IMG/VR virus record: IMGVR_UViG_3300009078_000003
Location: 90 to 64,089 of that record
Direction: 5' to 3' (one strand)
Source of the DNA: a virus
Taxonomy: Duplodnaviria; Caudoviricetes
Length of the DNA: 64,000 nt
In this document: piece by piece, positions 878 through 54,693 of the stretch
How positions within the stretch are numbered: position 1 is the stretch's first letter
Layout: each line of letters begins with the position of its first letter
Translations under genes and position numbers: made by a program
The notes under the pieces: model-generated
The model's input: only the letters and a program-made list of their open reading frames with translations
What the model was told of the DNA's origin: nothing
The model's database searches: none

Positions 878-1528
878 CTACCTGTTTTTAGACTGAGCAA
901 TCCTTGACAACGTATCCTGGACCCCCTTCAAAGAACAGGTTCTCTGGTGATCACAGAACAAATCAAAATCTATAAACAGCTCATACCCAAGCTTCTCAGC
1001 CTTTTGAAAAATATGGAAATCACAAGTCAGGCTGAGAGTTCCATCCGGGTAGTACAAAAACTCATAGGGTCTCTCAATCTTCTCAAAGATCTCCCTGCGG
1101 AACATTACACAGGCGCCCCCCGTAGCATCAACCCGCTCAATTCCCTTGCCATAGTAAACCGTATACTGCTTCTCTTCGTTATACCGCAGAGTTACCGGAT
1201 ATGGAAAGTATTCCCCATTGTCAGCCTTCATTGAGAAGCAGGTGGCTCCTATTATATCTTTCTCTGCACTGACCAATCTATGCAGGGCTTCTGGTGATGG
1301 GACGATGTCAGCGTCTATAAACCAAAGATAATCTGCGTTGGTCTCCAGAAATGCCTTAACACACCTGTTTCTTGCAGAGTCCAACGGGAATATGCCCTCC
1401 GGCATATAGGGAGTCGGAACTATGTACCTGGTATCATGGGTCCAGTAAATCAGATTGGATACTAACCCTGGCACAATATTTCCCATATTCGGGACTGCTA
1501 TAAAGATCCTCTTTTTCATGTTTAACAT
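878..1528 (-). CDS. GT-A (GT2-like) glycosyltransferase
   Basis: IFIAVP, SARN, YLWFIDAD (DxD), GGACVMFRREIF, DF.IF..A...G. Confidence 0.8.
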   Translation of the reverse strand: MLNMKKRIFIAVPNMGNIVPGLVSNLIYWTHDTRYIVPTPYMPEGIFPLDSARNRCVKAFLETNADYLWFIDADIVPSPEALHRLVSAEKDIIGATCFSMKADNGEYFPYPVTLRYNEEKQYTVYYGKGIERVDATGGACVMFRREIFEKIERPYEFLYYPDGTLSLTCDFHIFQKAEKLGYELFIDFDLFCDHQRTCSLKGVQDTLSRIAQSKNR

Positions 1529-2169
1529 CCTATATTTTCATGTGAAATTCCCTTCACCATCCCCCCTGGACTGCTAAAACTGTCCAAAATAGTTGCGGTA
1601 AAGCCATTGTGTTTATAAATCCTGGATCCTGAATCCCAACCTGGGCTTGTTGTAGTATAAGTATTTATACCATCCCAATCTAATCCAAAAACGCTGGCAA
1701 GGTTAGGTTCAAAACTGTCCAGAATTGTGGCTGAAAAGCCGTTATGTTTGTAAACCTTATGTACAGAAGCATCTATGCTAAGTAAATTTGGGCTGTCCCA
1801 ACACAATTCAGTCGGGTAGGTATTTGGGCTGCTGAAGCTGTCAAGTATGGTACTTGAAAAGCCGTCATGCTTGTAAATCTTAGTAGCTCCTTGATCGCTG
1901 CTAAGAATGTTTGTCCCATCCCAACTTACACCCATAGGGTTTGTAGTAGGAGTGCTGAAACTGTCCAAAATTGAGGCTGAAAATCCATCATGTTTGTAAA
2001 TCTTATCTGCCGTATATACATCAGTACTTAAAATATTTGCTCCATCCCAAGATAGCCCATACGGATAACCTTCAGGGGAGCTAAAGCTATCTAATATTGT
2101 GGTTGAAAAACCACTATGCTTATAGATTTTATTAACCTGGTCATCTGCACTAAACAGATTTATAGCCAT
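1522..2169 (-). CDS. 5-repeat beta-propeller protein, paralog 4
   Basis: Five ~42-aa repeats KIYKHxGFSxTILDSFSSP...GxxWDG; start MAINLFS after GAGG RBS; ends NIGC. Confidence 0.8.
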   Translation of the reverse strand: MAINLFSADDQVNKIYKHSGFSTTILDSFSSPEGYPYGLSWDGANILSTDVYTADKIYKHDGFSASILDSFSTPTTNPMGVSWDGTNILSSDQGATKIYKHDGFSSTILDSFSSPNTYPTELCWDSPNLLSIDASVHKVYKHNGFSATILDSFEPNLASVFGLDWDGINTYTTTSPGWDSGSRIYKHNGFTATILDSFSSPGGMVKGISHENIGC

Positions 2170-2182
2170 CTTAATTACCTCC

Positions 2183-2818
2183 TCAACACCCTGTGTACTC
2201 AAGTGCTAGCCCATAAGAATAAGTTGACGGGCTGCTGAAACTGTCTAGTATTGTGCTTGAGAAGCCATCGTGCTTGTAAATCTTATCTGTTCCAGAGTCA
2301 GTGCTATAAATATTTGTGCCATCCCACGAAATACCATGGAGAACACCCCCCGGACTGCTAAAGCTGTCCAGTATGGTGTTTGAAAAACCATTGTGTTTGT
2401 AAATCTTACCAGTTCCGAAATCTGAACTGTAAATATTTGTTCCATCCCAAACCAAACCTTCTGGATAGTGGCCAGGACTGCTGAAGCTGCTGAGGATACT
2501 GTTTGAAAAGCCATTATGTTTATACAGCTTCTCCCCCCAGCTTCCAGCACTGTACAGATTGGTCCCATCCCAGGCCAGACCAGTGTAACCCTCAGCGTAT
2601 GAACAGTTAAAACTGTCAAGTATCGTTGCGCTGAACCCCTGGTGCTTGAATATAGTTCCTTCACCATAATCAGAACTTAAGAGATTGGAGCCTTCCCAAG
2701 CCAGACCCCAGGGTTGATATAATGGGGCACTGAAACTGTCTAGAATAGAAGTGGAGAACCCATCGTGCTTATAAATCTTGTGGGAATCTTCATCAGTACT
2801 GAACAGATTTACAGCCAT
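2183..2818 (-). CDS. 5-repeat beta-propeller protein, paralog 3
   Basis: Same repeat; MAVNLFS...YTGC. Confidence 0.8.
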   Translation of the reverse strand: MAVNLFSTDEDSHKIYKHDGFSTSILDSFSAPLYQPWGLAWEGSNLLSSDYGEGTIFKHQGFSATILDSFNCSYAEGYTGLAWDGTNLYSAGSWGEKLYKHNGFSNSILSSFSSPGHYPEGLVWDGTNIYSSDFGTGKIYKHNGFSNTILDSFSSPGGVLHGISWDGTNIYSTDSGTDKIYKHDGFSSTILDSFSSPSTYSYGLALEYTGC

Positions 2819-2819
2819 C

Positions 2820-3458
2820 TTAACACCCTATATTTTCATTAGTTAATCCGGTTGGAGTTCCAGAGGGACTGCTAAAACTATCCAAAATAGTACTTGAAAT
2901 ACCACTGTGTTTGTACAGCTTGTCAGTACCTGTATCTGCGCTATATAGGTTCGTTCCATCAAAAGTTAGTCCAGATGGCAAACCCCCCGGACTGCTGAAA
3001 CTGCCTAATATTGAAACCGAAAAGCCATTGTGCTTGTAAATCTTATCTGAATAGCATGAGTCGCTTATGAGATTCCCACTAGCCCAAGTAATACCCTGGT
3101 CTGCCACACCCCCTACTGGATCATTAAAAGAACTTAAAATAGTACTGGAGAAGCCATTATGCTTATAAATATGGCTACTCCCCTGATCGACAGAATAAAG
3201 ATTGCTGCCATCCCAAGCCAGATCACGTGGGCCTGTCCCAGGACTGCTGAAACTATCCAGTATTGAAGAGGTAAAGCCGTCATGTTTGTAAAGTTTGTCT
3301 GTGGTTGCATCAGAACTATACAAATTCGTTCCATCAAAAGTCAGCCCCTGCAAGAGAGTACTAGGGCTACTGAAACTGTCTAATATTGAGGCTGAAAAGC
3401 CATCATGTTTGTAGATTTTGTTCGTTGTCCTATCTGCACTAAATATATTTATAGCCAT
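2820..3458 (-). CDS. 5-repeat beta-propeller protein, paralog 2
   Basis: Same repeat; MAINIFS...NIGC; start placed after GGAGGT RBS. Confidence 0.8.
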   Translation of the reverse strand: MAINIFSADRTTNKIYKHDGFSASILDSFSSPSTLLQGLTFDGTNLYSSDATTDKLYKHDGFTSSILDSFSSPGTGPRDLAWDGSNLYSVDQGSSHIYKHNGFSSTILSSFNDPVGGVADQGITWASGNLISDSCYSDKIYKHNGFSVSILGSFSSPGGLPSGLTFDGTNLYSADTGTDKLYKHSGISSTILDSFSSPSGTPTGLTNENIGC

Positions 3459-3463
3459 CTTGA

Positions 3464-3970
3464 TTACCTCCAGCTCTTCCACTGAGCGACTGGATTAAAA
3501 TACTCAGCACCGCAGTGTGTATTATAAGGTACCTCCAAGTGCCCATCAAACCACTTGATTGTAGTCTGGTGGGCTATCCCGGCAAAGCCAAGCTTCCTTA
3601 ATATTCCTTCAGTCTTGGCCAACACTCTAAATCCTGGAGGCCGGTACAGGAAATTCTCTGGCAGGAAAGGTTTCAGGATATTGGTGGCTGCTTGGATATA
3701 AGCCTCCTGATCCTCCCTGAAACCTTCCTGCGGTCTCAGATGATCATAGCCATGTACCCCAACTGTAACCCAGTCTTTGTTGGCTACCCACCAATCGAAG
3801 AACTCAGAACTCCTGGATATGTTCTCTATCCCCCGATAGTTGGCAATCACAAAAGCTATCAGTTTTGTCTCAGGATACTGCTCTTTGATCTCAAGCCAGT
3901 AATTCCAATACTTGAGATTGGAAGGGCAAACATCATCCGTAGTGAGGACTTTATTTTGCCAGGGCCTCAT
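3464..3970 (-). CDS. Polysaccharide deacetylase (NodB/CE4, DUF2334-like)
   Basis: TTDDV, FVI, GVHGYDH, YRPPG motifs. Confidence 0.75.
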   Translation of the reverse strand: MRPWQNKVLTTDDVCPSNLKYWNYWLEIKEQYPETKLIAFVIANYRGIENISRSSEFFDWWVANKDWVTVGVHGYDHLRPQEGFREDQEAYIQAATNILKPFLPENFLYRPPGFRVLAKTEGILRKLGFAGIAHQTTIKWFDGHLEVPYNTHCGAEYFNPVAQWKSWR

Positions 3971-4400
3971 CTAGAACCTCTTTGAAGGATCTACTCTTCG
4001 TTATTCCGGGTTCCTTACTTTCAGGATCAAGGGCCTCTTTCTCCTTCTTACTCAGAGATTCCCCCCTAGCCACCTTTGCACTGATCGCAATAACCTTTGC
4101 AGAGTCAGTTATTCTCTCAACCTGCTCAGTCCAGTCATCCCCCAAAGCCAGAGCATCATCATACGGAACCTCCTGAGCAGTGGGGTTCGCCAGGAACTGC
4201 ACTGCATCGGCATCGTCCACCCCAATTAGAATAGACTCGTCCCGATCCCCTCTGGCCACGACTTTGTCAAAGTTCTTCTTTAAAGAACTCTCGTATACCG
4301 GGCCAAACCGGACCTTCCTGGCGTCATACTCTTTCGGGTACACATAGCTTGTTTTCTCTGGTGTACGATTCCTTCCAATGGACATCTTGATTAATTTCAT
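3951..4400 (-). CDS. Hypothetical protein within propeller cluster
   Basis: 149-aa ORF with GGAGG RBS, in operon. Confidence 0.6.
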   Translation of the reverse strand: MKLIKMSIGRNRTPEKTSYVYPKEYDARKVRFGPVYESSLKKNFDKVVARGDRDESILIGVDDADAVQFLANPTAQEVPYDDALALGDDWTEQVERITDSAKVIAISAKVARGESLSKKEKEALDPESKEPGITKSRSFKEVLDEALAK

Positions 4401-4412
4401 ATTATTTCCTCC

Positions 4413-5039
4413 TTAACAACCTGTTTGTTCTAAAGACAAACCCCATGAAAAAGTACCTGGACCACTAAAACTGTCCAGAATAGTTGTGGAAAAACCATTG
4501 TGCTTGTAAATCCTATCTACACCACTATCTGCACTATACAAATCAGTTCCATCCCATGTTATACCACGAGGCTCTTCACCAGGACTGCTGAAGCTATCCA
4601 AAACAGTAGCTGAAAAGCCACTGTATTTATAAATCTTATCGGTTGATAGATTTGAACAAAGAGTATTTGTGCCATCCCAAGCAACACCCTGCACACCTAT
4701 TCCTGAACCCTGGGCAAAACTATCCAATATGGTATTAGAGAAACCATTATGCTTATAGACTTTACCGACCCCATAATCAGTACTGAGGAGATTAGTACCA
4801 TCCCATTCCAAACCTTGATTATAGTGATCCGATCGTAAAAAACTGTCTATAATAGAAGCTGAAAAGCCATCGTGTTTGTAAATTTTATCCCAATAATCAC
4901 TGTTACTAAGCATATTAGTACCATCCCAGGCTACATCAACAGCACCATACTTACCAGCACAGCTGTCCAGAATTGAGGCTGAAAAGCCATCGTGTTTATA
5001 AATCTTATTTGAGTCTTGACTGAATAGATTTATAGCCAT
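4413..5039 (-). CDS. 5-repeat beta-propeller protein, paralog 1
   Basis: Same repeat; MAINLFS...QTGC. Confidence 0.8.
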   Translation of the reverse strand: MAINLFSQDSNKIYKHDGFSASILDSCAGKYGAVDVAWDGTNMLSNSDYWDKIYKHDGFSASIIDSFLRSDHYNQGLEWDGTNLLSTDYGVGKVYKHNGFSNTILDSFAQGSGIGVQGVAWDGTNTLCSNLSTDKIYKYSGFSATVLDSFSSPGEEPRGITWDGTDLYSADSGVDRIYKHNGFSTTILDSFSGPGTFSWGLSLEQTGC

Positions 5040-5048
5040 AACTTCCTC

Positions 5049-6383
5049 CTACGAAAGCAGATCCTCTTCTCTAATTAACGAATGCCGCTGTATCTGGTCA
5101 GGATTAAACTGAGCTTCCTCAACCAGTCTCTTCAAACTCAGGACTTTGTCAGAGGGAATCAAGCCAGCCCTATTTGCCAGGTAAGATAATATCTGATCCG
5201 GGGTCTTACATTTGAGATATTCTACTGCCGGCACACTGTTCCTAAACTTTGAAAACTTGTAATAATCAGAATCCAGAATCTCCCCATGCATGATATTGTT
5301 TGGCACATAATTGATCAGCTTGCCAGCTTCCGCTTCCAACAAAGTAAATGGCTCAATATCATAACCCCTGAAAGTGTGAGTAACCCGGAACTCCTGGTCA
5401 TCTATCGCTGAAGTAAGAGCCAGATCTGCCACACTGTAAATCCACAATACAGTGTCCGGGATCTCCAGATTATGAGCGATTGTCCGAACAACTGTCTCTG
5501 GCTTATCAAGATCCAAGTAAGGAATATGCCTGTTTCTGCAAAAACCGTCATAGCAGTACTCTCTCCTAACAGTCCGCATATATTTAATGGGTATTATCAA
5601 CAGCTCTTCACACTCAACAGGAGCAAACGATACTGAATCTTCAAAATCCGATGCATAGGGAAAATCCCCACCCACCGGGTGATAGCAAAACTTATTTGGC
5701 TTAATTACCCTAGCTACCTCCTGTTTGTCAGCCATAACTTTCCATTCCCGCCATGGATAGTCTTTATAGATAATCGTAACATGCTGCACCCAGGTCTTTT
5801 CTTCAAACGCAATTCTTATAATAGGCGTTTCATCACCAAAATACCCAACGTCATACGGCTGCCAGTATTCACTAGGGTCCTTGTTCAGTACATTTTCGAT
5901 GGGATCTCGGGTTGTAGACAAATTCGCAGAAATACTAGTTCCAGGCACAGTGTTCAGCACATTCTGCTTGTTAAAATTGAAAACCTTTATCTGAACAATA
6001 GCCGAAGGCGCAGGGTATTTTTCATCCCTACTCATAATCCTAACCGGGGACCCTTCACTAGCTCTTCGTGTTATATCTGCTGCAGAACAATCGCAGAAAT
6101 AGACATCCGGCCTGTCAAGCAATTCCACCATCTTCTGCCTGTATAATTCTCTCCGATCAGACTGCTTCACCACGAAATCAGGTGTAATTCCAAAAGCAAT
6201 CAGATCCTCCAGAAAGTAATTCTGCAGGCTTACACGCTCCCCAGTAAGCTTGATCCCATCCAGTCTGAGAAAGAAGGTCCCCTTATTCTGCTTTGCCCAG
6301 ATATAGTTATACAGGACATTAACCAAATGTCCGATGTGCAAACGTCCAGAGAGTGAAGGTGCAAATCTTGTGGTTACTTTCAA
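5049..6383 (-). CDS. Class I glutamyl-tRNA synthetase/GluQ-like catalytic domain with inserted discoidin (F5/8 type C)-like domain
   Basis: TTRFAPSLSGRLHIGH, FFLRLD, QSDR, YFCDC, YDGFCR, THTFRGYD, KFSK; ~150-aa insert between CDC and YDGFC; no full anticodon-binding domain. Confidence 0.8.
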   Translation of the reverse strand: MKVTTRFAPSLSGRLHIGHLVNVLYNYIWAKQNKGTFFLRLDGIKLTGERVSLQNYFLEDLIAFGITPDFVVKQSDRRELYRQKMVELLDRPDVYFCDCSAADITRRASEGSPVRIMSRDEKYPAPSAIVQIKVFNFNKQNVLNTVPGTSISANLSTTRDPIENVLNKDPSEYWQPYDVGYFGDETPIIRIAFEEKTWVQHVTIIYKDYPWREWKVMADKQEVARVIKPNKFCYHPVGGDFPYASDFEDSVSFAPVECEELLIIPIKYMRTVRREYCYDGFCRNRHIPYLDLDKPETVVRTIAHNLEIPDTVLWIYSVADLALTSAIDDQEFRVTHTFRGYDIEPFTLLEAEAGKLINYVPNNIMHGEILDSDYYKFSKFRNSVPAVEYLKCKTPDQILSYLANRAGLIPSDKVLSLKRLVEEAQFNPDQIQRHSLIREEDLLS

Positions 6384-7417
6384 TGCAGGACCTCCACAAC
6401 CTTCTCAATAAGCTGGGTCATATTCAATCTCTGCGAAGAAGGAACTACAGGCACCTCATAAGAATACCCCAAAGGAAACTGCACCGTAATCCTGGAATTG
6501 GAAGGCCAGAAGTTCTTATCCGGTATCACTGTCAGTATCCTGGAATCCAAAGGCAGTATTCTAACACTGACAGCATCCATCATCCCTGCCAGCAACCCCA
6601 TGTGGAGCCTTCCACTAAGAACTTCTGGCCTTCCAAACATGTGAAGTGCCATCCAATCAAGATCTGAAACATACCTAGCATTCTCCAAACCCAAAGTTAC
6701 CGCTGAGTAGGTATCCTCCGCAGAGACTGAATAAACGTCCGCCCCTTTTGTTTTAGCATACTCCACCTGGATACGCAAAAACTCATTTAGGTAGCCCTCT
6801 GGCAAAGAATTCTTAGACAAAGAATATCTTGGATCTTGAAAAATACAAAGGGGGCTACTTATAAATCCCCTTCTTCGGAGCGTTTGTAGTGCCCACCTGG
6901 AGGTATCTTTTGACAGATATGATTGTATACCCAATTTACTAAACACAGCCTGAGCCATTGCGTCTCTGGTTACAACCAAATCAAATCCCCCAAAAAGAGT
7001 TGAGATATAGTTTATCGTCTGTGGGAATAGCACCAGCTCACTGTAAACCTGGTCAAAAGAATCAAACTTTACTAGTCTGCTGGAATCAACAGCATATAAG
7101 GGAAAACAGGAACCTACACCTAAAGCTATCTTCTTGGCCTGGGGGAACCTTAGTATAGCTTTCAAGAGAACCTGAGCCTTCAAAGAATGCTCAAGACCAA
7201 ACCATAACCAAGGAGAGCCTGCCAAAACCAAGATGTCCACATCTCCCCAATAAAATTGGCTCATGTAGGTATCCAACTCTTTCTCAGCCCTAAGAGCATC
7301 AAACATCAGGAACTCTACATCCGGGTCTACTGTCCTCAGAATCTCTTGGGTACCCCTGTAAGTAAGCAGGTCCCCGATATTATAATTTGAAGTTGGGTGC
7401 AGAACTAAGACTCTCAC
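6380..7417 (-). CDS. Polysaccharide pyruvyl transferase family protein
   Basis: NIGDLL, AGSP, ALGVG, VTRD, KDT, SGRLH motifs. Confidence 0.75.
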   Translation of the reverse strand: MRVLVLHPTSNYNIGDLLTYRGTQEILRTVDPDVEFLMFDALRAEKELDTYMSQFYWGDVDILVLAGSPWLWFGLEHSLKAQVLLKAILRFPQAKKIALGVGSCFPLYAVDSSRLVKFDSFDQVYSELVLFPQTINYISTLFGGFDLVVTRDAMAQAVFSKLGIQSYLSKDTSRWALQTLRRRGFISSPLCIFQDPRYSLSKNSLPEGYLNEFLRIQVEYAKTKGADVYSVSAEDTYSAVTLGLENARYVSDLDWMALHMFGRPEVLSGRLHMGLLAGMMDAVSVRILPLDSRILTVIPDKNFWPSNSRITVQFPLGYSYEVPVVPSSQRLNMTQLIEKVVEVLH

Positions 7418-9243
7418 AATTTACTCCTTATTCTGTCATACAGCTGATGTGTAGCTTCCAGCTGCTCTGGTGTCTTAACTGCCCTGTCAAAGTGGTACAA
7501 ATGAGGGACCATGGCCTTACCTACCAAAGCCTCCGGCCTAAAACCTTCATGTAGCTTCCCAAACCACCGGACTTTCCCATCCACCCTTAACAACTTGGGA
7601 TTCTGGGAAGGATACGACTCAGGCCACATAACCTGGGTTCTTTCCAGATCAGCATAGTACCTGTGTGGCAATTTCCACCCATCGTAGTTGTTACTCTCCA
7701 ACAGAGGCCAGATCTCCGGGAAGTCTTCCCCTACCTGCATATCAGAGTCAACATAAAGCGCCCATTCTGTTTCTACAAATTCCAGTGCCTTATTTCTTAC
7801 CGCAGCAAAGTCATCCACCCAGTCAATGTGCTCTACTCTTATCCTATAGGTTCTTACAATCTCTACAGTATCATCCGTAGACCCGGTATCACACACCAGG
7901 ACTTCCACCCCATTAAACCCGACAACATTATCCAGACAATATCTTATATAGTTTCCATTGTTCTTTGTAAGGACAACAACAGTCAGCTTACCCTTAGCTC
8001 CCGTCTGTCTGTTCCGTTTGTACTGCCCAGGCAGGAACCAGCTGTTAGTGATTCTTTTGACCTCATCTATAATCCCGCAATATTCAAGATAGCTGGCATC
8101 AAGGAGCCTGGGGTTATGGTAGTCATACAAACTCAGGGAGCCAAAATCCATATTGTCATGAACAGTCCCCCGCTTCTTTGCAATATCCCAGAACTCTGTC
8201 CCTGGATAAGGAGTGGCTACATGGAACCAAAATTTGCCGGTCTTTACTTCCTGGCACCAGCGCATCAGATCGAGTGTCTGGTTCATATCTTCTATGGTCT
8301 CTGTGGGAGCGCCAAACATATAACTGCCATTTACGTTGATATGGTTTTCCAGGGCTGTAAGGGTGTTCTGTTTGAGGTTAGCAACACTAGCTCTTTTACT
8401 GGCCTTCAGGTACTTCAAGATCCTATCAGACCCAGACTCAAATCCAGTGTTAATATTTGTAACCTTTAACCTCTTCAAGCGTTCCCACAGGTCTGGCGAG
8501 AGAGGATCACAGAACCTTGCCTGAATGTGCATATACTTAATTTTATCCAGCAACCCTTCCCGCACCAGGGCATCATACAATTCGTCAAGCCGGGACTCCC
8601 CTATGAAAGCGTCATCCCAGATACCCAACCCCTGACCATATTTGAGGGCACTGGCTATTTGCTTGATAAGCTTATCCATACTCAGCTTCCGGTAGCCTTT
8701 CTCAAACTCTGTAGAACAGAAAACACACCGGAAGGGGCAGCCTCTGGCTGTCATTGTCCATATTATTTCAGACCTACGCACAAACTTATCATAGTTCAAG
8801 CTAGGGAGCTCTGCCTCTGTAAGTTTACCCACACTGCCAACTTTAAATCCCTTAATGTGGGCATTCTCAATCTCCTCAAGAGGTACTCCTTTAATCAGTT
8901 GCTCCACAGCCTTCTCAGCGTCTCCCCTAATAACAGCATCAAACACTGTACCCCGCAAAGAGGCCGGCAAAGGAGTTGTGTGGTGGCCCCCAATCACCAT
9001 AAGACCACCAAATCCCTGGTCCCTGAACTCCCCGGCCAGCTTGGCAACAACATTAAAATCAACAGTACTGCTGTAGAAACCCAGGATGTCCGGCTGAAAT
9101 GTTCTAACATCCTGCTGCAGCTTGTGCTTAGGCCCATAGGAAACCTGGATATGAGCATCATCATCTATATAGCTAAGGATAGATAACGCTCCCAAATAAG
9201 AGGCTCCAAGCCAGTCCGGGACCATGAGCAGGAATTTCTTCAT
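7414..9243 (-). CDS. B12-binding radical SAM enzyme fused to C-terminal GT2 glycosyltransferase
   Basis: GGHHTT cobalamin-domain motif, RGCPFRCVFC (CxxxCxxC), GFESGS, TPYPGT; then VVLTKN...DTGSTDDT...DFAAVRN...YVDSD...LHE. Confidence 0.88.
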   Translation of the reverse strand: MKKFLLMVPDWLGASYLGALSILSYIDDDAHIQVSYGPKHKLQQDVRTFQPDILGFYSSTVDFNVVAKLAGEFRDQGFGGLMVIGGHHTTPLPASLRGTVFDAVIRGDAEKAVEQLIKGVPLEEIENAHIKGFKVGSVGKLTEAELPSLNYDKFVRRSEIIWTMTARGCPFRCVFCSTEFEKGYRKLSMDKLIKQIASALKYGQGLGIWDDAFIGESRLDELYDALVREGLLDKIKYMHIQARFCDPLSPDLWERLKRLKVTNINTGFESGSDRILKYLKASKRASVANLKQNTLTALENHINVNGSYMFGAPTETIEDMNQTLDLMRWCQEVKTGKFWFHVATPYPGTEFWDIAKKRGTVHDNMDFGSLSLYDYHNPRLLDASYLEYCGIIDEVKRITNSWFLPGQYKRNRQTGAKGKLTVVVLTKNNGNYIRYCLDNVVGFNGVEVLVCDTGSTDDTVEIVRTYRIRVEHIDWVDDFAAVRNKALEFVETEWALYVDSDMQVGEDFPEIWPLLESNNYDGWKLPHRYYADLERTQVMWPESYPSQNPKLLRVDGKVRWFGKLHEGFRPEALVGKAMVPHLYHFDRAVKTPEQLEATHQLYDRIRSKL

Positions 9244-9803
9244 GTAATACCCCCCTCTGCCACAAAAACACCAACTGTTCTAAAGGGGAACTGCCATAAA
9301 AAGGGTCCAAGGGTCTTGAGGAGCTCCTCATACTGCCACTCATAAAGATGCTTCTCATAGATGTTCTCTTTGTAATCTGTCTCTGGCTGCCCTAAATGAC
9401 CGTACCCCCGGAACCAGGGCCTAAAAGGTGCCAAAGGAAGAGACAACCACAAGAACTTGGTCCTCTGCTTAAGCCTTACCCAAGTCTGTATAGCCTCATC
9501 TTTATTAAGGTGTTCCAGGACATCGCCAAGAATAATGAGATCGTAAACTGTTTCTGCAAATGCAGCCTTCTGGATATCACAGACATAAATTGTGCCGTAC
9601 TTTTCCAGAAGGCAGTACCTGTCAACATAGGGAGCAAATATCTCTACGGCCTCAACACATGCCTCCGGCTTGACACTCTTTATTATATCACAGTAAATAC
9701 CCAACCCAGGCCCCACATCCAGCACTGTACTTATCTGGTCTTTGAAAGTCTGAAACCAGTCCTCAAATAAAAGTTTTCCTTCATTTGCACTGCTGGGCAT
9801 CAC
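9240..9803 (-). CDS. Class I SAM-dependent methyltransferase
   Basis: VLDVGPGLG, YDLIILGDVLEH. Confidence 0.85.
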   Translation of the reverse strand: MMPSSANEGKLLFEDWFQTFKDQISTVLDVGPGLGIYCDIIKSVKPEACVEAVEIFAPYVDRYCLLEKYGTIYVCDIQKAAFAETVYDLIILGDVLEHLNKDEAIQTWVRLKQRTKFLWLSLPLAPFRPWFRGYGHLGQPETDYKENIYEKHLYEWQYEELLKTLGPFLWQFPFRTVGVFVAEGGIT

Positions 9804-10318
9804 TTCACCTTCTTTATGATAATGTCAAAAGACCAGCGATTGTGAAGAGAATCAAAGCTCAGGAGTTCATACCTCCAACCCATACTGGATATGATTGAAA
9901 GCATATCCTCCGGCCAGTAGTCTCTGGTATGTGCCGGGTTGGCATCCGGGTGGCCCACGTGGGGGTAGTGGTCCCCATGGGGAGTCAGAGTAAACAACAC
10001 TCCCCCAGGTTTAAGTATACGCCAACACTCTTCAAGACCTTCTCTTGGGTCCACCAGATCTTCCAAAATGTGGGAAGCCACCACAAACTCAAACTGCTCA
10101 TCCTGAAACATGTGCAGGTTCCTGATATCTGCAACAATCTCAGGCTCTGCTCCAGGCCACTTATCCACTTCAGTCAGCCGGCCTCTCCACCATTGTTTAT
10201 CAGCATTCTTCGGATCTGACTGGTGTAGCGGCCCGCACCCCAGGTCCACCCCCGTCTTAGGGGTCACACCATACTCACCAAGATACTTCTCTAGTAATTC
10301 CCGCTCACTCTGTATCAT
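9800..10318 (-). CDS. Class I SAM-dependent methyltransferase (type 11-like)
   Basis: VDLGCG, FEFVVASHILED, RILKPGG. Confidence 0.85.
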   Translation of the reverse strand: MIQSERELLEKYLGEYGVTPKTGVDLGCGPLHQSDPKNADKQWWRGRLTEVDKWPGAEPEIVADIRNLHMFQDEQFEFVVASHILEDLVDPREGLEECWRILKPGGVLFTLTPHGDHYPHVGHPDANPAHTRDYWPEDMLSIISSMGWRYELLSFDSLHNRWSFDIIIKKVK

Positions 10319-10320
10319 AG

Positions 10321-11457
10321 CTATCTCATCATAAAGTCTTTCTGGCCTACCTGGCCAGCATCTGTCACCATGTACTTTGGATAGGTGTCAACTAACACCT
10401 CGTTCAAGAGTTCCTCCCCGTACATATTATAAAAGATAGCACCAGGAGGGGCTTTTCGTACTAGACTGTATCCCCCAGTAAGCCACACAACATGGACATC
10501 TTGGGCACCCTTATTGAACACATGCCACTGTACTTTGTCTGTGATCCACCGCTCCTCAACAGAACGGCTCGGCAAAGCCTTAATCTGCTTCTGGTATATA
10601 GAACCCTTTAGCATTCTCATCATGGTCTGCATTACATGGTAGCTTGGCCTCTTTTCCCCACTCTCAGCCACTAACCCCCACCCTTCGTACTGAAGGGCAA
10701 ACCATATTGAATAATCAATACCCATAGAATTAAACAGGATATTCTGCTCTAACAGAGAAACTGCCTGCCGCTCCGGAGTTTGTATTATATGATAAAATGC
10801 TGGATCCCCGGAACAGGGAACTCCAAACTCAGAGACCACTATAGGCTTAGAAACCTCCCACGTAGCAAGGAGTTCATTAACTTTTCCCATCCCAACGAAT
10901 ATGTTTTTGGTTCCCCCATAACCATAAACGTAAAAATTGAGACTAACAAAATCCAAAACATCACCTATCCAGTAACCTAGGCATTCTCGCAGAAAGCCAC
11001 TTCTGTCATCGTTCCCTAAGAGACCATTAAACGTGGGGGTAATCCAACCACAGCCCCCTATTGTGTTCTCAGGATCTATCTCTTTGCCTGTGTAATAAAA
11101 AGCTGACATCAAATCTACAAACTGCTTTGGGCTCCCCCCAAACCTGCACCCAGCCTGATCCGGTCTTGTTTCTGGCTCTCCACCAAAATCCCAGATACTG
11201 ATAAGCCCGTTGTACTTCTTGAACATATCAGCAAAATGGTTCTTTGGAACCTGAACCGTGTTCTTCGGCAGTACGAGCTTCCCAATCAACTTCGTCCCAG
11301 AATCAACTACCTCTTTGCAGACATCAATCGAGGGTTGATATATGTGTAGCGGCAGCTGAACCAGGTCCGGCTTCACTTCCAAAACCAGATTCTTGTACTT
11401 GTCCAAACTCCCCGCTAGAGCTACCCCATACTGACTGATCTCCCACTTTTGTATCAT
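10321..11457 (-). CDS. Clan GH-A glycoside hydrolase-like TIM barrel
   Basis: WDFGGEP (acid/base), DFVSLNFY, KPIVVSEFG (nucleophile), WGLV...KRPSY. Confidence 0.65.
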   Translation of the reverse strand: MIQKWEISQYGVALAGSLDKYKNLVLEVKPDLVQLPLHIYQPSIDVCKEVVDSGTKLIGKLVLPKNTVQVPKNHFADMFKKYNGLISIWDFGGEPETRPDQAGCRFGGSPKQFVDLMSAFYYTGKEIDPENTIGGCGWITPTFNGLLGNDDRSGFLRECLGYWIGDVLDFVSLNFYVYGYGGTKNIFVGMGKVNELLATWEVSKPIVVSEFGVPCSGDPAFYHIIQTPERQAVSLLEQNILFNSMGIDYSIWFALQYEGWGLVAESGEKRPSYHVMQTMMRMLKGSIYQKQIKALPSRSVEERWITDKVQWHVFNKGAQDVHVVWLTGGYSLVRKAPPGAIFYNMYGEELLNEVLVDTYPKYMVTDAGQVGQKDFMMR

Positions 11458-12430
11458 CTTTCATCTCCTTACCGTTAGAAAGCAATTTTCTAAGAGAGGA
11501 CATTACCATCTCAGGTGTTATGCTCTTCATACAAACCATATAATAAGACACATCCCTACAGGCCCCCATCTGCCAATCCCAACAAGGGCAGATCTTGCAG
11601 GTATCCTTCAAGAATAAAATCTCCTTGCTGCCGTAATACTTTACCCGGAACCTAGGATCAATAGGGCCAAAAAGCCCAACAAAGGGGATACCCAGAAACC
11701 CACAAGCGTGGAGTATTCCTGAATCCACCACTATTGCAGCTGAACACTGAGAAAGAACAGAGAACAACTGCATGATATTAACCCTTCCAGTAAGATTTAT
11801 AAGACCAGCCCTCTTTTCAAGCTTAACAAACTGATTGTGCAGAAGAACAATGGCATACTCCCTACTCAGGAGGGTCCCAACAACCTCTTCCCAATTAGGC
11901 CAAGACCGTATTGGAGCAGTAGCCCAGGGAGCTAAGGCTATAATCCTGTTATTCCCAAACTCCTTCAGCTGGGTTCTTCCCCAATCCCCCCAGGCAGGGT
12001 CTACCTTAATCCTGTAATTAGCAACAACATCAGAAGGTCTAAGACCAACACCCATAGCCATAAGATCAAGTCTATGGTAAGCAGCACAGTGGGGCAAGTA
12101 ATCTACCTTGTCCTGAAGATTAACTATAAAGGAACCAGTAGAACTACCATCCAAACAGACAGAGTCTACCAATTTCAGTTTTGTTATAAGTTTTTTGTAC
12201 GGTGGGCTGGTTATCAGATGGACTTTACAAAACTTTGGGGGCAGTTTTCTACGCAGACTGTGGGAAACCAGAGCAGCCATCAGGACATCCCCTAAGCCTT
12301 TCGTTCTCCTAATATAAACGTCCAGCTTTTTATGACAAGAAAGCTCTGCCAGGGTACCCTCAGCTACCCCATGAATGAATAAAGACTTTCCAGGAGTAGC
12401 CGGTGGGGCAGGCTTATGGAAAGTTGGCAT
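11324..12430 (-). CDS. GT9 (heptosyltransferase-like) glycosyltransferase
   Basis: GLGDVLM, RSWP, NLTG, VDSGILH, IPFVGLFGP, CxPC, CMxxI. Confidence 0.88.
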   Translation of the reverse strand: MPTFHKPAPPATPGKSLFIHGVAEGTLAELSCHKKLDVYIRRTKGLGDVLMAALVSHSLRRKLPPKFCKVHLITSPPYKKLITKLKLVDSVCLDGSSTGSFIVNLQDKVDYLPHCAAYHRLDLMAMGVGLRPSDVVANYRIKVDPAWGDWGRTQLKEFGNNRIIALAPWATAPIRSWPNWEEVVGTLLSREYAIVLLHNQFVKLEKRAGLINLTGRVNIMQLFSVLSQCSAAIVVDSGILHACGFLGIPFVGLFGPIDPRFRVKYYGSKEILFLKDTCKICPCWDWQMGACRDVSYYMVCMKSITPEMVMSSLRKLLSNGKEMKDDTKVGDQSVWGSSSGEFGQVQESGFGSEAGPGSAAATHISTLD

Positions 12431-29631: not shown

Positions 29632-29898
29632 CTACAGCTCTTCTTCGATAATATCCTCCGGGGTCTCCAATAATCCAGGCAGCTCCTGTTGCACCAGAGT
29701 CCCTGGGCTACCTACAGCTATTACTCGACACACCGCCCGGCAGGACATTCCATAATAGGCAGCTATCTCCCTAATAGGAACTTGGTCAGCTGCCTGAGAC
29801 AAGATATCAGCGTCCCTCTCACTCAGCCCTGCTGGTGTGTCTCTAACTTCCGTCTTCTTTTTTTTCTTAGTCATTTTTACACCTATATATGTTTCCAA
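29632..29898 (-). CDS. Small HTH-like protein
   Basis: LSERDADIL...IREIAAYYGMSCRAVCRVI. Confidence 0.5.
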   Translation of the reverse strand: METYIGVKMTKKKKKTEVRDTPAGLSERDADILSQAADQVPIREIAAYYGMSCRAVCRVIAVGSPGTLVQQELPGLLETPEDIIEEEL

Positions 29899-31010
29899 GA
29901 AATTCCCAATTTTATTCGACTTATCATTTCACGAGAAACGCCAAACTGCCTAGCAATTTCACTACCGGATAGTCCATCGTTTAACAGAGCTTTTATCTTC
30001 AAAACATTTTGCCTTGCCAATTTAATTACTGGCCTATCTGGTCTCTCCTTTACCTTACCTGGGTAGCCCCAACAAACTTTTCTCCTTGCCCACTCTAAGA
30101 GCCCCTCTGGAACTCCAAACTCTTTAGATATCTCCTTAGTTAGTTTACCTTTTAAGAAAGAAAGCTTAACCAACCGAACCTTGTTTTCTGATAACCCACC
30201 TTCTTTCTGTAAGTGTTCACTAACCTCAGCATCATCCCTATTAGATTTGTAAGACCCTAGATACATGTGAGTGGGAGAAATGCAATTCCGTCTATCGCAA
30301 ACATGACACACCAGCTTTCCTTTAGGAACATCCCCAACAAAAGTTGCGTAAGACAATCGAGTAACACTAAACCTTTTCTGCCCTATCCCTAATTCCAAAG
30401 ATTTTCCCTCCCAAAGCCAACAATGGGATTCCGGGTCAATCTGTACTCTTGATAAAAGTATCTGAGCCAGATCAGTTTTCCTTTTAACAGATATTGCTTT
30501 ATATCTTGTTCCCTCAATAGCCCCTTTAGGCATATCCACCAGTCCCTCTGGGTCACCTGAGCGCCTCCAACGATCATAATGCACATTACAATACCCATGA
30601 GCATGAGCAGGCTCTGAGCAGCCTTTAACAGAACATTCCCCACGTACCCGAGAGAAGTTTGCCAGAGGGTCTCCATACAACTCCCACCTCTTATAGTGCT
30701 TTGAACACAACCCACGGGCCTGAACAGGGTTCTCACAACCCTCAATAGAGCAAATAGGATTTTCCTTTCTTGATATCCCGCCATAATTAATCTTTAAAGG
30801 ATCCCCATATTTTTTAAAGCGCTCATAATGTTTTCTACAATAACCTTTACCAAAGTGCTTTCCATCACAACCCTCAACAAGGCACCCTATCCGAGGACCT
30901 GGAAAGACAATCTCAGGATCACCATATTTTCTAAACCTTTCGTAATGATAACTACAATAACCTTTTGCATAGTGCTTTTGATCACATCCAACAATTGAAC
31001 ACTTTTTCAT
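29883..31010 (-). CDS. HNH homing endonuclease with four CxxxGC..(H)...G.C..HY zinc-finger repeats and C-terminal HTH
   Basis: Four Cys/His repeats; CWLW...VCHVCDRRNCISPTHMYLG...N; EIARQFGVSREMIS. Confidence 0.85.
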   Translation of the reverse strand: MKKCSIVGCDQKHYAKGYCSYHYERFRKYGDPEIVFPGPRIGCLVEGCDGKHFGKGYCRKHYERFKKYGDPLKINYGGISRKENPICSIEGCENPVQARGLCSKHYKRWELYGDPLANFSRVRGECSVKGCSEPAHAHGYCNVHYDRWRRSGDPEGLVDMPKGAIEGTRYKAISVKRKTDLAQILLSRVQIDPESHCWLWEGKSLELGIGQKRFSVTRLSYATFVGDVPKGKLVCHVCDRRNCISPTHMYLGSYKSNRDDAEVSEHLQKEGGLSENKVRLVKLSFLKGKLTKEISKEFGVPEGLLEWARRKVCWGYPGKVKERPDRPVIKLARQNVLKIKALLNDGLSGSEIARQFGVSREMISRIKLGISWKHI

Positions 31011-54629: not shown

Positions 54630-54693
54630 TTTAACAGATCACTTGAAGCAATGAAAATACACTGCTTCAAGTGATTAAGTGAGGAGAACAAAT

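What the first reader, a model, noticed from the sequence alone, without database searches (positions are those of the whole stretch)
5049..6383. Phage aminoacyl-tRNA-synthetase-like ligase with a grafted carbohydrate-binding-type domain, inside a glycan-tailoring operon
Seen: the GluRS/GluQ catalytic motifs in order (RFAPS, HIGH, YxCxC, YxGxCR, RGxD, KFSK), no full anticodon-binding domain, and a ~150-aa insert in the zinc-binding region. The insert reads like a circularly permuted F5/8 type C (discoidin/CBM32-like) sandwich: IVQIKVF...P.ENVL...YWQP...IRIAF...FAPVECEELLI. Some substrate-pocket positions deviate (SPT to SLS, LRIED to LRLDG, and the Tyr normally preceding AxxxDD seems absent). 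Its start overlaps the stop of the pyruvyltransferase gene. Known: GluQ/YadB is a truncated GluRS that acylates the queuosine diol, and other aaRS paralogs acylate non-tRNA acceptors. Inference: this enzyme adenylates an amino or other acid and transfers it to a sugar or glycoprotein, i.e. a glycan aminoacylating enzyme rather than a translation factor.
Basis: partly seen in the sequence, partly recalled or inferred. Interest (0 to 1): 0.88.

Follow-up and report, generated by a model that had tools for sequence, protein, structure and literature searches.

The report
Phage GluRS-like ligase with lectin-type insert
A phage gene encodes a shortened glutamyl-tRNA-synthetase-type enzyme with a sugar-binding-type domain spliced into the part that normally positions tRNA, and because it always sits among sugar-building genes it probably attaches an amino acid to a sugar chain rather than to tRNA.

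Summary
The ORF is real: window 5049..6383, minus strand, 444 aa. Its TTG start overlaps the stop of the upstream gene.

What it is:
- It is a GluRS/GluQRS-type class I catalytic domain with no anticodon-binding domain. The model fits GluRS 5h4v at Z 27.4 and GluQRS 4a91 at Z 25.9.
- The HIGH and KxSK motifs are intact.
- A roughly 170-aa F5/8-type-C (CBM32/discoidin) jelly roll sits between the Zn ligands C97/C99 and Y278/C282. Its best match is CBM32 2j1a at Z 11.4.
- The insert is collinear with the Pfam profile.

The family:
- It is rare: 23 representatives at E<=1e-30 among 1.84 billion.
- I found it only on viral and metagenome contigs. No GenBank phage record holds it full-length.
- It forms its own clade, outside GluRS and apart from GluQRS-like proteins.
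- Of the six Glu-contacting residues of GluQRS, four are kept, including both arginines. Glu45 becomes Asp and Tyr172 becomes Leu in all 22 members.

Context: 9 of 10 dereplicated loci with at least 5 kb of flank carry a glycosyltransferase within 10 kb. A PslG-like hydrolase and small methyltransferases recur. There are no tRNA genes and no TGT.

Reading (about 50%): an ATP-dependent ligase that adenylates a Glu-like amino acid and acylates a glycan or glycoconjugate. The substrate and the acceptor are inferred, not shown.

The parts
5049..6383 (-). Whole ORF, 444 aa plus stop: GluRS/GluQRS-type catalytic domain with an inserted F5/8-type-C domain
6057..6383 (-). First half of the Rossmann fold (residues 1-109). 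It holds R6 and S10 (Glu contacts), HIGH at 16-19 and the RLDG motif (R40-G43).
   Evidence: Pfam PF00749 E 1.9e-24 on residues 2-109; alignments to 6b1p and 1nzj; group table
6087..6095 (-). C97-x-C99, the first two ligands of the GluQRS-type Zn motif
   Evidence: 22 of 22 family members have both Cys; motif CxCx11-28Yx3C from a passage of PMC4381286
5553..6056 (-). Insert, residues 110-277. A linker carries the invariant R119, K122, Y123 and P124, followed by an F5/8-type-C (CBM32/discoidin) jelly roll at about residues 129-272.
   Evidence: Separate AF2 model, pLDDT 86.1; VIA Z 11.4, rmsd 2.5 A over 114 aa to CBM32 2j1a; Foldseek 2v72 E 1.2e-4; PF00754 in 9 of 18 aligned inserts and collinear in 9 of 10
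5535..5552 (-). Y278-D-G-F-C282-R283, the second half of the Zn motif (Yx3C)
   Evidence: Y in 21 of 22 and C in 22 of 22 family members
5247..5534 (-). Second half of the Rossmann fold (residues 284-379). It holds D320, L321 (Tyr in GluRS and GluQRS), S325, D328-D329, R339-G-x-D342 and KFSK at 376-379.
5052..5246 (-). C-terminal helical tail (residues 380-444). It aligns to the end of GluQRS; there is no anticodon-binding domain.
6380..7417 (-). Upstream gene, polysaccharide pyruvyl-transferase family. Its stop overlaps the ligase start.
   Evidence: PF04230 E 8.8e-07, 29.5 bits against cut-off 25.3
7414..9243 (-). B12-binding radical SAM fused to a GT2 glycosyltransferase
10321..11457 (-). 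Clan GH-A-type (PslG-like) glycoside hydrolase with no Pfam match. It is a recurrent neighbour of the ligase family.
   Evidence: Profile A3 against PDB: PslG E 1.1e-06, GH10 xylanases; found in 6 loci and next to the insert-less relative L030
11324..12430 (-). GT9 (heptosyltransferase-family) glycosyltransferase
   Evidence: PF01075 E 2.8e-13
9240..10318 (-). Two SAM methyltransferases (9240..9803 and 9800..10318)
4413..5039 (-). Downstream gene, after a 9-nt gap: one of four paralogous repeat (beta-propeller-like) proteins. It is a possible glycoprotein target.
   Evidence: homologs lie next to the ligase gene in L009 and L024
3464..3970 (-). DUF2334 / polysaccharide-deacetylase-like gene

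Best explanation
The gene encodes an ATP-dependent amino-acid ligase derived from the GluRS/GluQRS catalytic domain. It works in the phage's glycan-building module, not in translation.

Proposed mechanism:
1. HIGH and KxSK bind ATP.
2. A pocket that keeps both carboxylate-clamping arginines (R6, R339), the backbone and Ser contacts (A8, S10) and an acidic residue for the alpha-amino group (D42) binds glutamate or a close anionic analogue.
3. An aminoacyl-adenylate forms.
4. The acyl group passes to a hydroxyl or amino group of a carbohydrate, which could be a free, lipid-linked or protein-linked glycan.
5. The acceptor is held by an F5/8-type-C (CBM32-like) domain. That domain is inserted in the Zn-binding module, the part that positions the tRNA acceptor arm in GluRS.

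Shown here: the fold, the motifs, the residue conservation, the position and fold of the insert, the family's separate clade, and the conserved gene neighbourhood.

Inferred: that the protein is catalytically active, which amino acid it uses, that the acceptor is a carbohydrate, and the chemistry of the bond.
For: Fold. The full AF2 model has pLDDT 90.9. It fits GluRS 5h4v at Z 27.4 (2.4 A over 277 aa) and GluQRS 4a91 at Z 25.9 (2.5 A over 262 of 290 aa). The nearest Atlas structure cluster is GluQRS.

Catalytic motifs, each in 22 of 22 family members: H16, G18, K376, K379, R40, G340, D342; S378 in 21 of 22; D328 in 20 and D329 in 21 of 22.

Glu pocket. The six Glu contacts of GluQRS 4A91 are Arg9, Ala11, Ser13, Glu45, Tyr172 and Arg190 (passages of PMC12736043). 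They map to R6 (22 of 22), A8 (21 of 22), S/T10 (19 of 22), D42 (22 of 22 Asp), L321 (22 of 22 Leu) and R339 (22 of 22), using the alignments.

Insert. It is a collinear F5/8-C/CBM32 domain. It lies between the GluQRS-type Zn ligands. [quoted passage not shown]

Changed positions. Residues that are acidic or Tyr in both tRNA-acting groups differ across the whole family. G43 (19 of 22) stands where GluRS has Asp (22 of 22) and GluQ-like proteins have Asp in 19 of 21. Position 45 is K, H, N or R where the others have Asp (22 of 22 and 20 of 21). L321 stands where they have Tyr.

Clade. The family, including its insert-less members, is one clade (SH-aLRT 100, branch length 1.03) outside the GluRS clade.

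Context. Of 10 dereplicated homolog groups with at least 5 kb of flank, 9 have a glycosyltransferase within 10 kb. The GH-A hydrolase is in 6 loci, and small methyltransferases recur. The insert-less relative L030 also sits beside GT9-like, GH-A-like and methyltransferase genes. There are 0 tRNA genes in the window and in 15 loci. TGT is in 0 of 6 viral records, while GT2 is in 4 of the 5 homolog-bearing records.

Operon. The gene is translationally coupled inside the glycan operon.
Against: - No activity, product or acceptor has been observed.
- F5/8-C/DOC-type domains also bind proteins and lipids: APC10 scores Z 10.4 and IFT25 scores Z 10.1.
- The window's own insert matches no Pfam model by itself.
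- The sugar-binding residues of the insert were not mapped. I had no model coordinates, so I could not check whether the insert faces the active site.
- One well-flanked group (L012/L016) has no glycosyltransferase nearby, only a methyltransferase.
- No background rate of glycosyltransferases near random phage genes was measured.
- Y172 to Leu and E45 to Asp may mean that the substrate is not glutamate.
- The architecture and the Zn motif are closest to GluQRS, which acts on tRNA.
Confidence: 0.5

Rival explanations
1. The enzyme aminoacylates a protein directly. The target would be a virion or tail protein encoded next to it: the propeller proteins, or the 752-aa protein in the second clade. 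The discoidin insert would then act as a protein-recognition (DOC/APC10-like) module.
For: The insert also matches the protein-binding discoidin folds APC10 (Z 10.4), IFT25 (Z 10.1) and the HECTD3 DOC domain (Z 9.6). The next gene downstream is a propeller protein in the window (9-nt gap). A propeller gene also lies directly upstream in L009 and 172 nt downstream in L024. A 752-aa protein lies 2-3 nt downstream in 6 of the 7 second-clade loci that carry it, and 914 nt away in the seventh. It gives a weak virion-structural match.
Against: The top structural and Pfam matches are carbohydrate-binding CBM32 and NedA-like galactose-binding domains. The neighbours that recur across all clades are glycan enzymes, not any one protein. 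No aaRS-type enzyme of class I is known to me to acylate a protein side chain (recalled).
Confidence: 0.15
2. It is a divergent GluQRS: it glutamylates a modified base (queuosine-like) in a tRNA, or in another RNA or DNA of the host or the phage.
For: It has the architecture of GluQRS: no anticodon-binding domain, and a Zn site of the Cys-Cys-Tyr-Cys type. GluQRS gives the best NCBIfam score (90.9 bits) and the nearest Atlas cluster. Both Glu-clamping arginines are kept.
Against: The score is far below the GluQRS cut-off (90.9 against 276.7 bits). The family is a separate clade. The Tyr172 equivalent is Leu, and the ED-x-D motif is DG-x-K/H, in the whole family. A 170-aa domain sits in the module that contacts the nucleic acid. 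No tRNA genes were found and no TGT or QueC. The neighbours are glycan enzymes.
Confidence: 0.15
3. It adenylates an amino acid and passes it to a small non-carbohydrate acceptor or a carrier, as a step in making a precursor. It could also be a non-catalytic scaffold or lectin that has kept an old fold.
For: Known aaRS paralogues have very diverse acceptors (table and passages of PMC9437257). The acceptor is not observed here.
Against: Strict conservation of HIGH, KxSK and the pocket arginines in 22 of 22 members argues for catalysis. The carbohydrate-type insert and the glycan neighbourhood argue for a sugar acceptor.
Confidence: 0.15
4. It is an ordinary phage-encoded glutamyl-tRNA synthetase used in translation.
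For: One source names a homolog 'glutamyl/glutaminyl-tRNA synthetase', and Pfam PF00749 matches.
Against: There is no anticodon-binding domain. The score is 74 bits against the gltX cut-off of 289.95. The protein lies outside the GluRS clade, and conserved GluRS residues are changed.
Confidence: 0.02

Closest known systems
Glutamyl-Q tRNA(Asp) synthetase (GluQRS / YadB; PDB 4a91, 1nzj)
   Same: It is a GluRS catalytic domain without an anticodon-binding domain, and 262 of its 290 residues superpose at 2.5 A (Z 25.9). HIGH and KxSK are present. The Zn ligands are of the Cys-Cys-Tyr-Cys type. Four of the six Glu contacts are kept. GluQRS is a precedent for moving Glu onto a diol that is not the tRNA 3' end (PMC9437257, passages).
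   Different: The family is a separate clade and scores 90.9 bits against a cut-off of 276.7. The Tyr172 equivalent is Leu, Glu45 is Asp, and the two following conserved Asp residues are Gly and Lys/His. The Zn motif spacing is 178 residues instead of 11-28, because a discoidin domain is inserted. The genes are carried by phages, in a glycan context, with no link to tRNA or queuosine.
Bacterial glutamyl-tRNA synthetase (GluRS; e.g. 5h4v, 1j09, 8i9i)
   Same: The catalytic domain fold matches (Z 27.4, 2.4 A over 277 aa). The Zn-binding domain is at the same place.
   Different: The anticodon-binding domains are missing. The protein lies outside the GluRS clade and is far below the equivalog cut-off.
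MshC (Cys:GlcN-Ins ligase of mycothiol synthesis), as a functional analogy only
   Same: It is a class I aaRS paralogue that uses ATP to ligate an amino acid to a sugar and not to tRNA (PMC9437257, table and passages). The window operon also holds a deacetylase-like gene, as the mycothiol pathway does. The pathway order is recalled, not tested.
   Different: MshC derives from CysRS, not GluRS. It is not known to me to carry a lectin-type insert (recalled, not tested here), and it is cellular and makes a small thiol. No sequence comparison with MshC was run here.
CBM32 / F5/8 type C (discoidin) domains of glycoside hydrolases (e.g. 2j1a, 2v72)
   Same: The insert has this fold (Z 11.4, 2.5 A over 114 aa). 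Relatives' inserts match PF00754 and PF22633.
   Different: Here the domain is nested inside the Zn knuckle of an aaRS-type enzyme instead of being appended to a hydrolase. Ligand-binding residues were not identified.

Membership tests
GluRS (glutamate--tRNA ligase) | Class I Rossmann catalytic domain with HIGH and KMSKS-type motifs | tested here: met
   PF00749 E 1.9e-24; Z 27.4 to 5h4v; HIGH at 16-19 and KFSK at 376-379
GluRS (glutamate--tRNA ligase) | C-terminal anticodon-binding domain(s) | tested here: not met
   No PF19269 match (and the listing for family members). The model aligns only to chain residues up to about 305-345 of GluRS.
GluRS (glutamate--tRNA ligase) | Reaches the curated equivalog score (TIGR00464 cut-off 289.95) | tested here: not met
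   74 bits
GluRS (glutamate--tRNA ligase) | Charges tRNA-Glu | not testable with these tools
   Needs an aminoacylation assay
GluQRS (tRNA glutamyl-Q34 synthetase) | GluRS catalytic domain alone, without an anticodon-binding domain | tested here: met
   Without the insert the protein is about 276 aa. 262 of the 290 residues of 4a91 align, over chain residues 4-294.
GluQRS (tRNA glutamyl-Q34 synthetase) | Zn motif CxCx11-28Yx3C (PMC4381286) | tested here: inconclusive
   The ligand residues are present and conserved (C97, C99, Y278, C282), but the spacing is 178 residues because of the insert. Zn binding was not tested.
GluQRS (tRNA glutamyl-Q34 synthetase) | The six Glu-contacting residues of 4A91 (Arg9, Ala11, Ser13, Glu45, Tyr172, Arg190) | tested here: not met
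   Four are kept. Glu45 is Asp and Tyr172 is Leu in 22 of 22 members.
GluQRS (tRNA glutamyl-Q34 synthetase) | Reaches the curated equivalog score (TIGR03838 cut-off 276.7) and groups with GluQRS in a tree | tested here: not met
   90.9 bits. The family is a separate clade with SH-aLRT 100 (quick search, midpoint root).
GluQRS (tRNA glutamyl-Q34 synthetase) | Glutamylates queuosine of tRNA-Asp | not testable with these tools
   Needs an assay. As context only: 0 tRNA genes and 0 of 6 records with TGT.
F5/8 type C / CBM32 (the insert only) | Galactose-binding-domain-like jelly-roll fold | tested here: met
   Z 11.4 to 2j1a, with 73 chains at Z>=8; Foldseek CBM32 hits at E 1e-4
F5/8 type C / CBM32 (the insert only) | Matches Pfam PF00754 above the gathering score | tested here: inconclusive
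   The window's own insert gives no match. 9 of 18 aligned relatives match at E<=1. Of 10 scanned singly, 9 match and 3 exceed 28.2 bits.
F5/8 type C / CBM32 (the insert only) | Binds a carbohydrate | not testable with these tools
   Needs a glycan array or ITC. The fold alone also occurs in protein and lipid binders.

The most novel reading that the evidence does not exclude
This is the founding member of a phage-specific third lineage of the GluRS catalytic domain, beside GluRS and GluQRS. In it, the tRNA-positioning Zn module has been rebuilt around a lectin domain, so that the enzyme esterifies or amidates a glycan on virion or tail proteins with glutamate or a related amino acid. That would be the first aaRS-derived glycan aminoacylase, and a new kind of virion glycan decoration.
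Probability: 0.33. Interest if true: 0.85.

Novelty: new variant of a known kind. Interest (0 to 1): 0.68.

Why it matters
aaRS paralogues that acylate something other than tRNA are few, and each one opened a new piece of biochemistry (GluQRS, MshC, PoxA-type enzymes; review PMC9437257).

In this case a lectin-type domain sits in the module that normally positions the acceptor arm, so it shows directly how an aaRS could be re-aimed at a new acceptor.

If the acceptor is a glycan, the enzyme would account for amino-acid decoration of phage or host glycans, for which I know of few assigned enzymes (recalled). It could also serve as a tool for site-specific aminoacylation of sugars.

The prediction can be tested with standard assays.

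Tried and rejected
I used the search for related loci instead, as the message itself advised.

2. Complex prediction of the ligase (A1) with the downstream propeller protein (A4) scored 0.00 and gave no verdict. I use it neither for nor against binding.

3. Net charge and pI of the catalytic core were compared across groups. The medians were 7.1 for the family, 7.9 for GluQ-like proteins and 6.4 for GluRS, with overlapping ranges. This says nothing about nucleic-acid binding.

4. The 'Mom family' Pfam hit next to a second-clade homolog first suggested a link to DNA modification. PHROGs shows that this protein is an HNH homing endonuclease (E 4e-106), so I dropped the idea.

5. I considered an alternative Zn motif, Y123-x3-C127. 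Position 127 is Cys in only 4 of 15 members of A1 and is Ser in the window. C282 is Cys in 22 of 22, so I rejected it.

6. Circular permutation of the insert is rejected.

7. A scan of one genome per prokaryote species found no full-length relative, only a weak insert-less match, L029. The scan works by peptide patterns, so absence is not proven.

8. GenBank phage records: 0 of 50,697 cover at least 80% of the protein. BFVD has no protein with this fused architecture among its listed hits.

9. Literature searches found no description of this family. Searches returned nothing, and the others returned nothing relevant by title and abstract. The library lacks most subscription journals, and supplements were closed, so 'not in print' holds only for these searches.

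10. I could not obtain model coordinates. The orientation of the insert relative to the active site was therefore not measured.

I corrected it and sent the same report again.
Full report
THE OBJECT

The finding's coordinates hold one ORF on the minus strand, 5049..6383, of 444 aa. Its TTG start overlaps the TGA of the upstream gene as TTGA, and a GGAGG lies 8 nt upstream. The next gene follows after 9 nt and has its own Shine-Dalgarno sequence. So the gene is embedded in a tightly packed, co-directional operon.

The window is an IMG/VR virus record of 64 kb with an estimated completeness of 51%. It carries major head protein, protease, terminase and tail genes, so it is a tailed phage.

CATALYTIC DOMAIN

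- Pfam finds tRNA-synt_1c on residues 2-109 only (E 1.9e-24).
- NCBIfam ranks GluQRS first (90.9 bits against cut-off 276.7) and bacterial GluRS next (74 bits against 289.95).
- A profile of 15 homologs aligns both halves of the Rossmann fold to GluRS and to E. coli GluQRS.
- The AF2 model (pLDDT 90.9, pTM 0.87) superposes on GluRS 5h4v at Z 27.4 (2.4 A over 277 residues; chain residues 2-305). It superposes on GluQRS 4a91 at Z 25.9 (2.5 A over 262 of 290 residues). Foldseek agrees, and so does the Atlas structure search (GluQRS cluster).
- No anticodon-binding domain is present.

THE INSERT

178 residues lie between C99 and Y278. I folded residues 110-277 alone with an alignment of 18 homologous inserts, which gave pLDDT 86.1.

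- An exhaustive structural comparison puts CBM32 and other galactose-binding-domain-like or discoidin domains on top. The best is 2j1a at Z 11.4 (2.5 A over 114 residues), and 73 chains reach Z>=8.
- Foldseek's best hits are CBM32 modules at E about 1e-4.
- By sequence, 9 of the 18 aligned inserts match PF00754 (best E 4e-08), and 9 match the NedA-like galactose-binding model.
- The window's own insert matches neither model by itself.
- Scanned singly, 9 of 10 relatives match PF00754 collinearly (for example residues 40-162 against profile positions 2-114 of 127), and 3 exceed the gathering score.

The domain is therefore an ordinary F5/8-type-C domain and is not circularly permuted.

The list of structural matches also contains protein-binding members of this fold: APC10/DOC, IFT25 and muskelin. 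The fold alone does not prove sugar binding.

WHERE THE INSERT SITS

GluQRS binds zinc through the motif CxCx11-28Yx3C, with three Cys and one Tyr (PMC4381286, passage seen). The same paper's abstract says that the Zn-binding domain of GluRS positions the tRNA acceptor arm and modulates the amino-acid site.

In the family C97, C99 and C282 are present in 22 of 22 members, and Y278 in 21 of 22. The jelly roll is therefore nested inside this module, which stretches the motif spacing to 178 residues.

Two insert-less relatives of 290-295 aa (P0137, P0138) keep the flanking family motifs with a short linker between them.

THE POCKET

A paper on PDB 4A91 lists six groups that contact glutamate in GluQRS: Arg9, Ala11 (carbonyl), Ser13, Glu45, Tyr172 and Arg190. 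The two arginines and Tyr172 hold the side-chain carboxylate (PMC12736043, passages).

Using the numbered alignment, these residues map to R6, A8, S10, D42, L321 and R339. I then compared 22 family members, 21 GluQRS-like short proteins and 22 GluRS.

- Both arginines are invariant in all three groups.
- Glu45 is Asp in all 22 family members. It is Glu in 17 of 21 GluQ-like proteins and 19 of 22 GluRS.
- Tyr172 is Leu in all 22 family members. It is Tyr in 21 of 21 and 22 of 22 of the others.
- The two following Asp residues of the ED-x-D motif are conserved in both tRNA-acting groups (Asp in 19-22 of 21-22 members at each position). In the family they are Gly (19 of 22) and Lys, His, Asn or Arg.
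- The Pro of SPTG is never Pro in the family.
- The HIGH and KxSK residues are invariant.

I read this as an active adenylating enzyme for an alpha-amino acid with an anionic side chain, either glutamate or a close analogue, with a remodelled acceptor side. This is inference.

THE FAMILY

- The word-indexed search found 15 full-length relatives at 37-73% identity, all from metagenomes.
- The exhaustive search of 1.84 billion representatives found 23 at E<=1e-30.
- A tree of 72 sequences (quick IQ-TREE, 303 columns, midpoint root) puts the 22 insert-bearing and 2 insert-less proteins in one clade. The clade has SH-aLRT 100 and a branch of 1.03, and it lies outside the GluRS clade (also 100) and apart from the GluQRS-like short proteins, which are not resolved as one group.
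- The insert-less pair is nested inside the family, so the insert was either lost once or gained more than once.
- Pattern scans found 4 loci in viral contigs, 23 in metagenome contigs, and only one weak insert-less match in one-genome-per-species prokaryote contigs.
- No GenBank phage record has a full-length match: 0 of 50,697 cover at least 80%.

NEIGHBOURHOOD

In the window, reading along the transcript, the operon holds these genes:
1. GT9.
2. A GH-A (PslG-like) hydrolase.
3. Two methyltransferases.
4. A B12-radical-SAM/GT2 fusion.
5. A pyruvyl-transferase-family protein.
6. The ligase.
7. A propeller protein.
8. An unknown gene.
9. A deacetylase-like protein.
10. Three more propeller proteins.
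11. A GT2.
12. An NlpC/P60-type protein.

I called ORFs in 22 sources and clustered them. The 22 ligase homologs collapse to 17 groups at 90% identity or more.

Ten groups have at least 5 kb of flanking sequence in total. Nine of these have a glycosyltransferase within 10 kb:
- GT2 is confirmed by Pfam in L004, L007 and L009.
- GT2 is confirmed by a family search in the records of L002 and L005/L013.
- GT1 and GT2 occur in the L017/L019/L023-L026 clade (and BLAST).

For the L013 group, the 'GT2 cluster' member is really a radical-SAM homolog.

The tenth group (L012/L016) has only a small methyltransferase, nucleotidyl-transferase, HD and GIY-YIG genes, and unknowns. The seven groups with shorter flanks were not counted.

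Other recurring neighbours:
- The GH-A hydrolase occurs in 6 loci.
- Propeller proteins occur in 6 loci. One is directly adjacent to the ligase gene in the window and in L009, and one lies 172 nt downstream in L024.
- In the second clade, an HATPase_c_3 protein lies immediately upstream in most loci. A 752-aa protein lies 2-3 nt downstream in 6 of the 7 loci that carry it (914 nt in L022). A xylose-isomerase-like protein and a collagen-like tail fibre are nearby.
- The insert-less relative on viral contig L030 also lies beside GT9-like, GH-A-like and methyltransferase genes.

There are no tRNA genes in the window or in 15 loci. TGT is absent from the window's record and from 5 other homolog-bearing viral records, while GT2 is present in 4 of those 5. 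QueC is absent from the window's record. These records are incomplete, so absence is weak evidence. I did not measure how often a glycosyltransferase lies near a random phage gene.

INTERPRETATION

The conserved adenylation machinery, the nearly intact Glu pocket and the family-wide changes on the acceptor side point one way. So do the lectin-type domain grafted into the acceptor-positioning module and the persistent linkage to glycan enzymes across homologs that are only 33-73% identical. Together they make an amino-acid:glycan (or glycoconjugate) ligase the best reading. I put it at about 0.5.

GluQRS moves Glu onto a diol of a modified base, and MshC moves Cys onto an amino sugar. Both are known precedents for this kind of re-aiming (PMC9437257, table and passages).

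Rivals:
- A protein acceptor: the discoidin fold can bind proteins, and structural genes are adjacent.
- A nucleic-acid acceptor, as in GluQRS.
- Another small acceptor, or a non-catalytic role.
- A translational GluRS, which is very unlikely.

The complex prediction with the propeller protein gave no verdict.

NOVELTY

I found no description of this family in eight literature searches. I saw titles and abstracts of the listed papers, and passages of three papers. Supplements were closed.

I rate it a new variant of a known kind: an aaRS paralogue with a non-tRNA acceptor, whose domain architecture I did not find in PDB, BFVD or GenBank phages.

The first-stage notes on the same window (e1-6206163, e1-6206164) described the operon and the propellers. 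I checked the GH-A call and the invariant C-terminal Cys of the propellers. The scan holds no note on this family from other DNA.

Noticed in passing
window 1522-5039 (four genes); L007:7944-8576, L009:2937-3446, L013:7827-8495: There are four paralogous repeat proteins of about 210-226 aa, each with five roughly 42-aa repeats. They weakly resemble designed and natural beta-propellers. Homologs from three other loci share a C-terminal Cys that is invariant in all 7 aligned sequences. In L005/L013 the propeller gene is flanked on both sides by paralogous 305-313-aa genes. The downstream one matches GT2 (29.2 bits).
   Followed up: partly
window 10321-11457; L002:5578-6726, L004:5127-6260, L013:933-2117, L026:4449-5420, L030:10849-11880: This is a 323-394-aa family with no Pfam match in any of 6 members. 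Its profile hits PslG (E 1.1e-06) and GH10 xylanases. Two Glu residues, E94 and E210, are invariant. It is probably an undescribed clan GH-A family specific to these phage glycan modules.
   Followed up: partly
window 11324-11457: The GT9 ORF (11324..12430) and the GH-A ORF (10321..11457) overlap by 134 nt. The GT9 tail over this stretch is low-complexity. The GH-A start seems real, because homologs align from residue 1.
   Followed up: no
window 7414-9243: A single ORF fuses a B12-binding domain, a radical SAM core and a GT2 glycosyltransferase. A separate B12/radical-SAM homolog lies near the ligase homolog in L005/L013.
   Followed up: no
window 11324-12430 (C-terminal third of the GT9 protein): The GT9-family protein carries a cluster of Cys residues near its C-terminus (translation). 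This recalls, from memory only, the metal-binding Cys motif of protein O-heptosyltransferases. If real, it would fit protein glycosylation.
   Followed up: no
L017:7965-9998, L023:8017-9996 and L023:11358-13616 (also L018-L022, L026): In the second clade the ligase gene is bracketed by two genes. A 655-677-aa HATPase_c_3 protein lies upstream, at 0-4 nt in 4 of the 6 loci that carry it (493 nt in L020, 1458 nt in L019). A 752-aa protein without a Pfam match lies 2-3 nt downstream in 6 of 7 loci (914 nt in L022). The role of a GHKL-type ATPase here is unexplained.
   Followed up: no
L017:6257-8032: A 591-aa HNH homing endonuclease with a Mom-like C-terminal region is inserted in this locus, between the xylose-isomerase-like gene and the HATPase gene. 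The closely related L023 has a 235-aa relative of it elsewhere in the locus.
   Followed up: no
window 29883-31010 and 54679-55812: There are two HNH endonuclease genes in the phage, one of them inside the structural module.
   Followed up: no
P0137, P0138; L030:8001-8864: Insert-less members of the ligase family (290-295 aa) nest inside the insert-bearing clade. They are natural controls for what the discoidin domain adds.
   Followed up: partly
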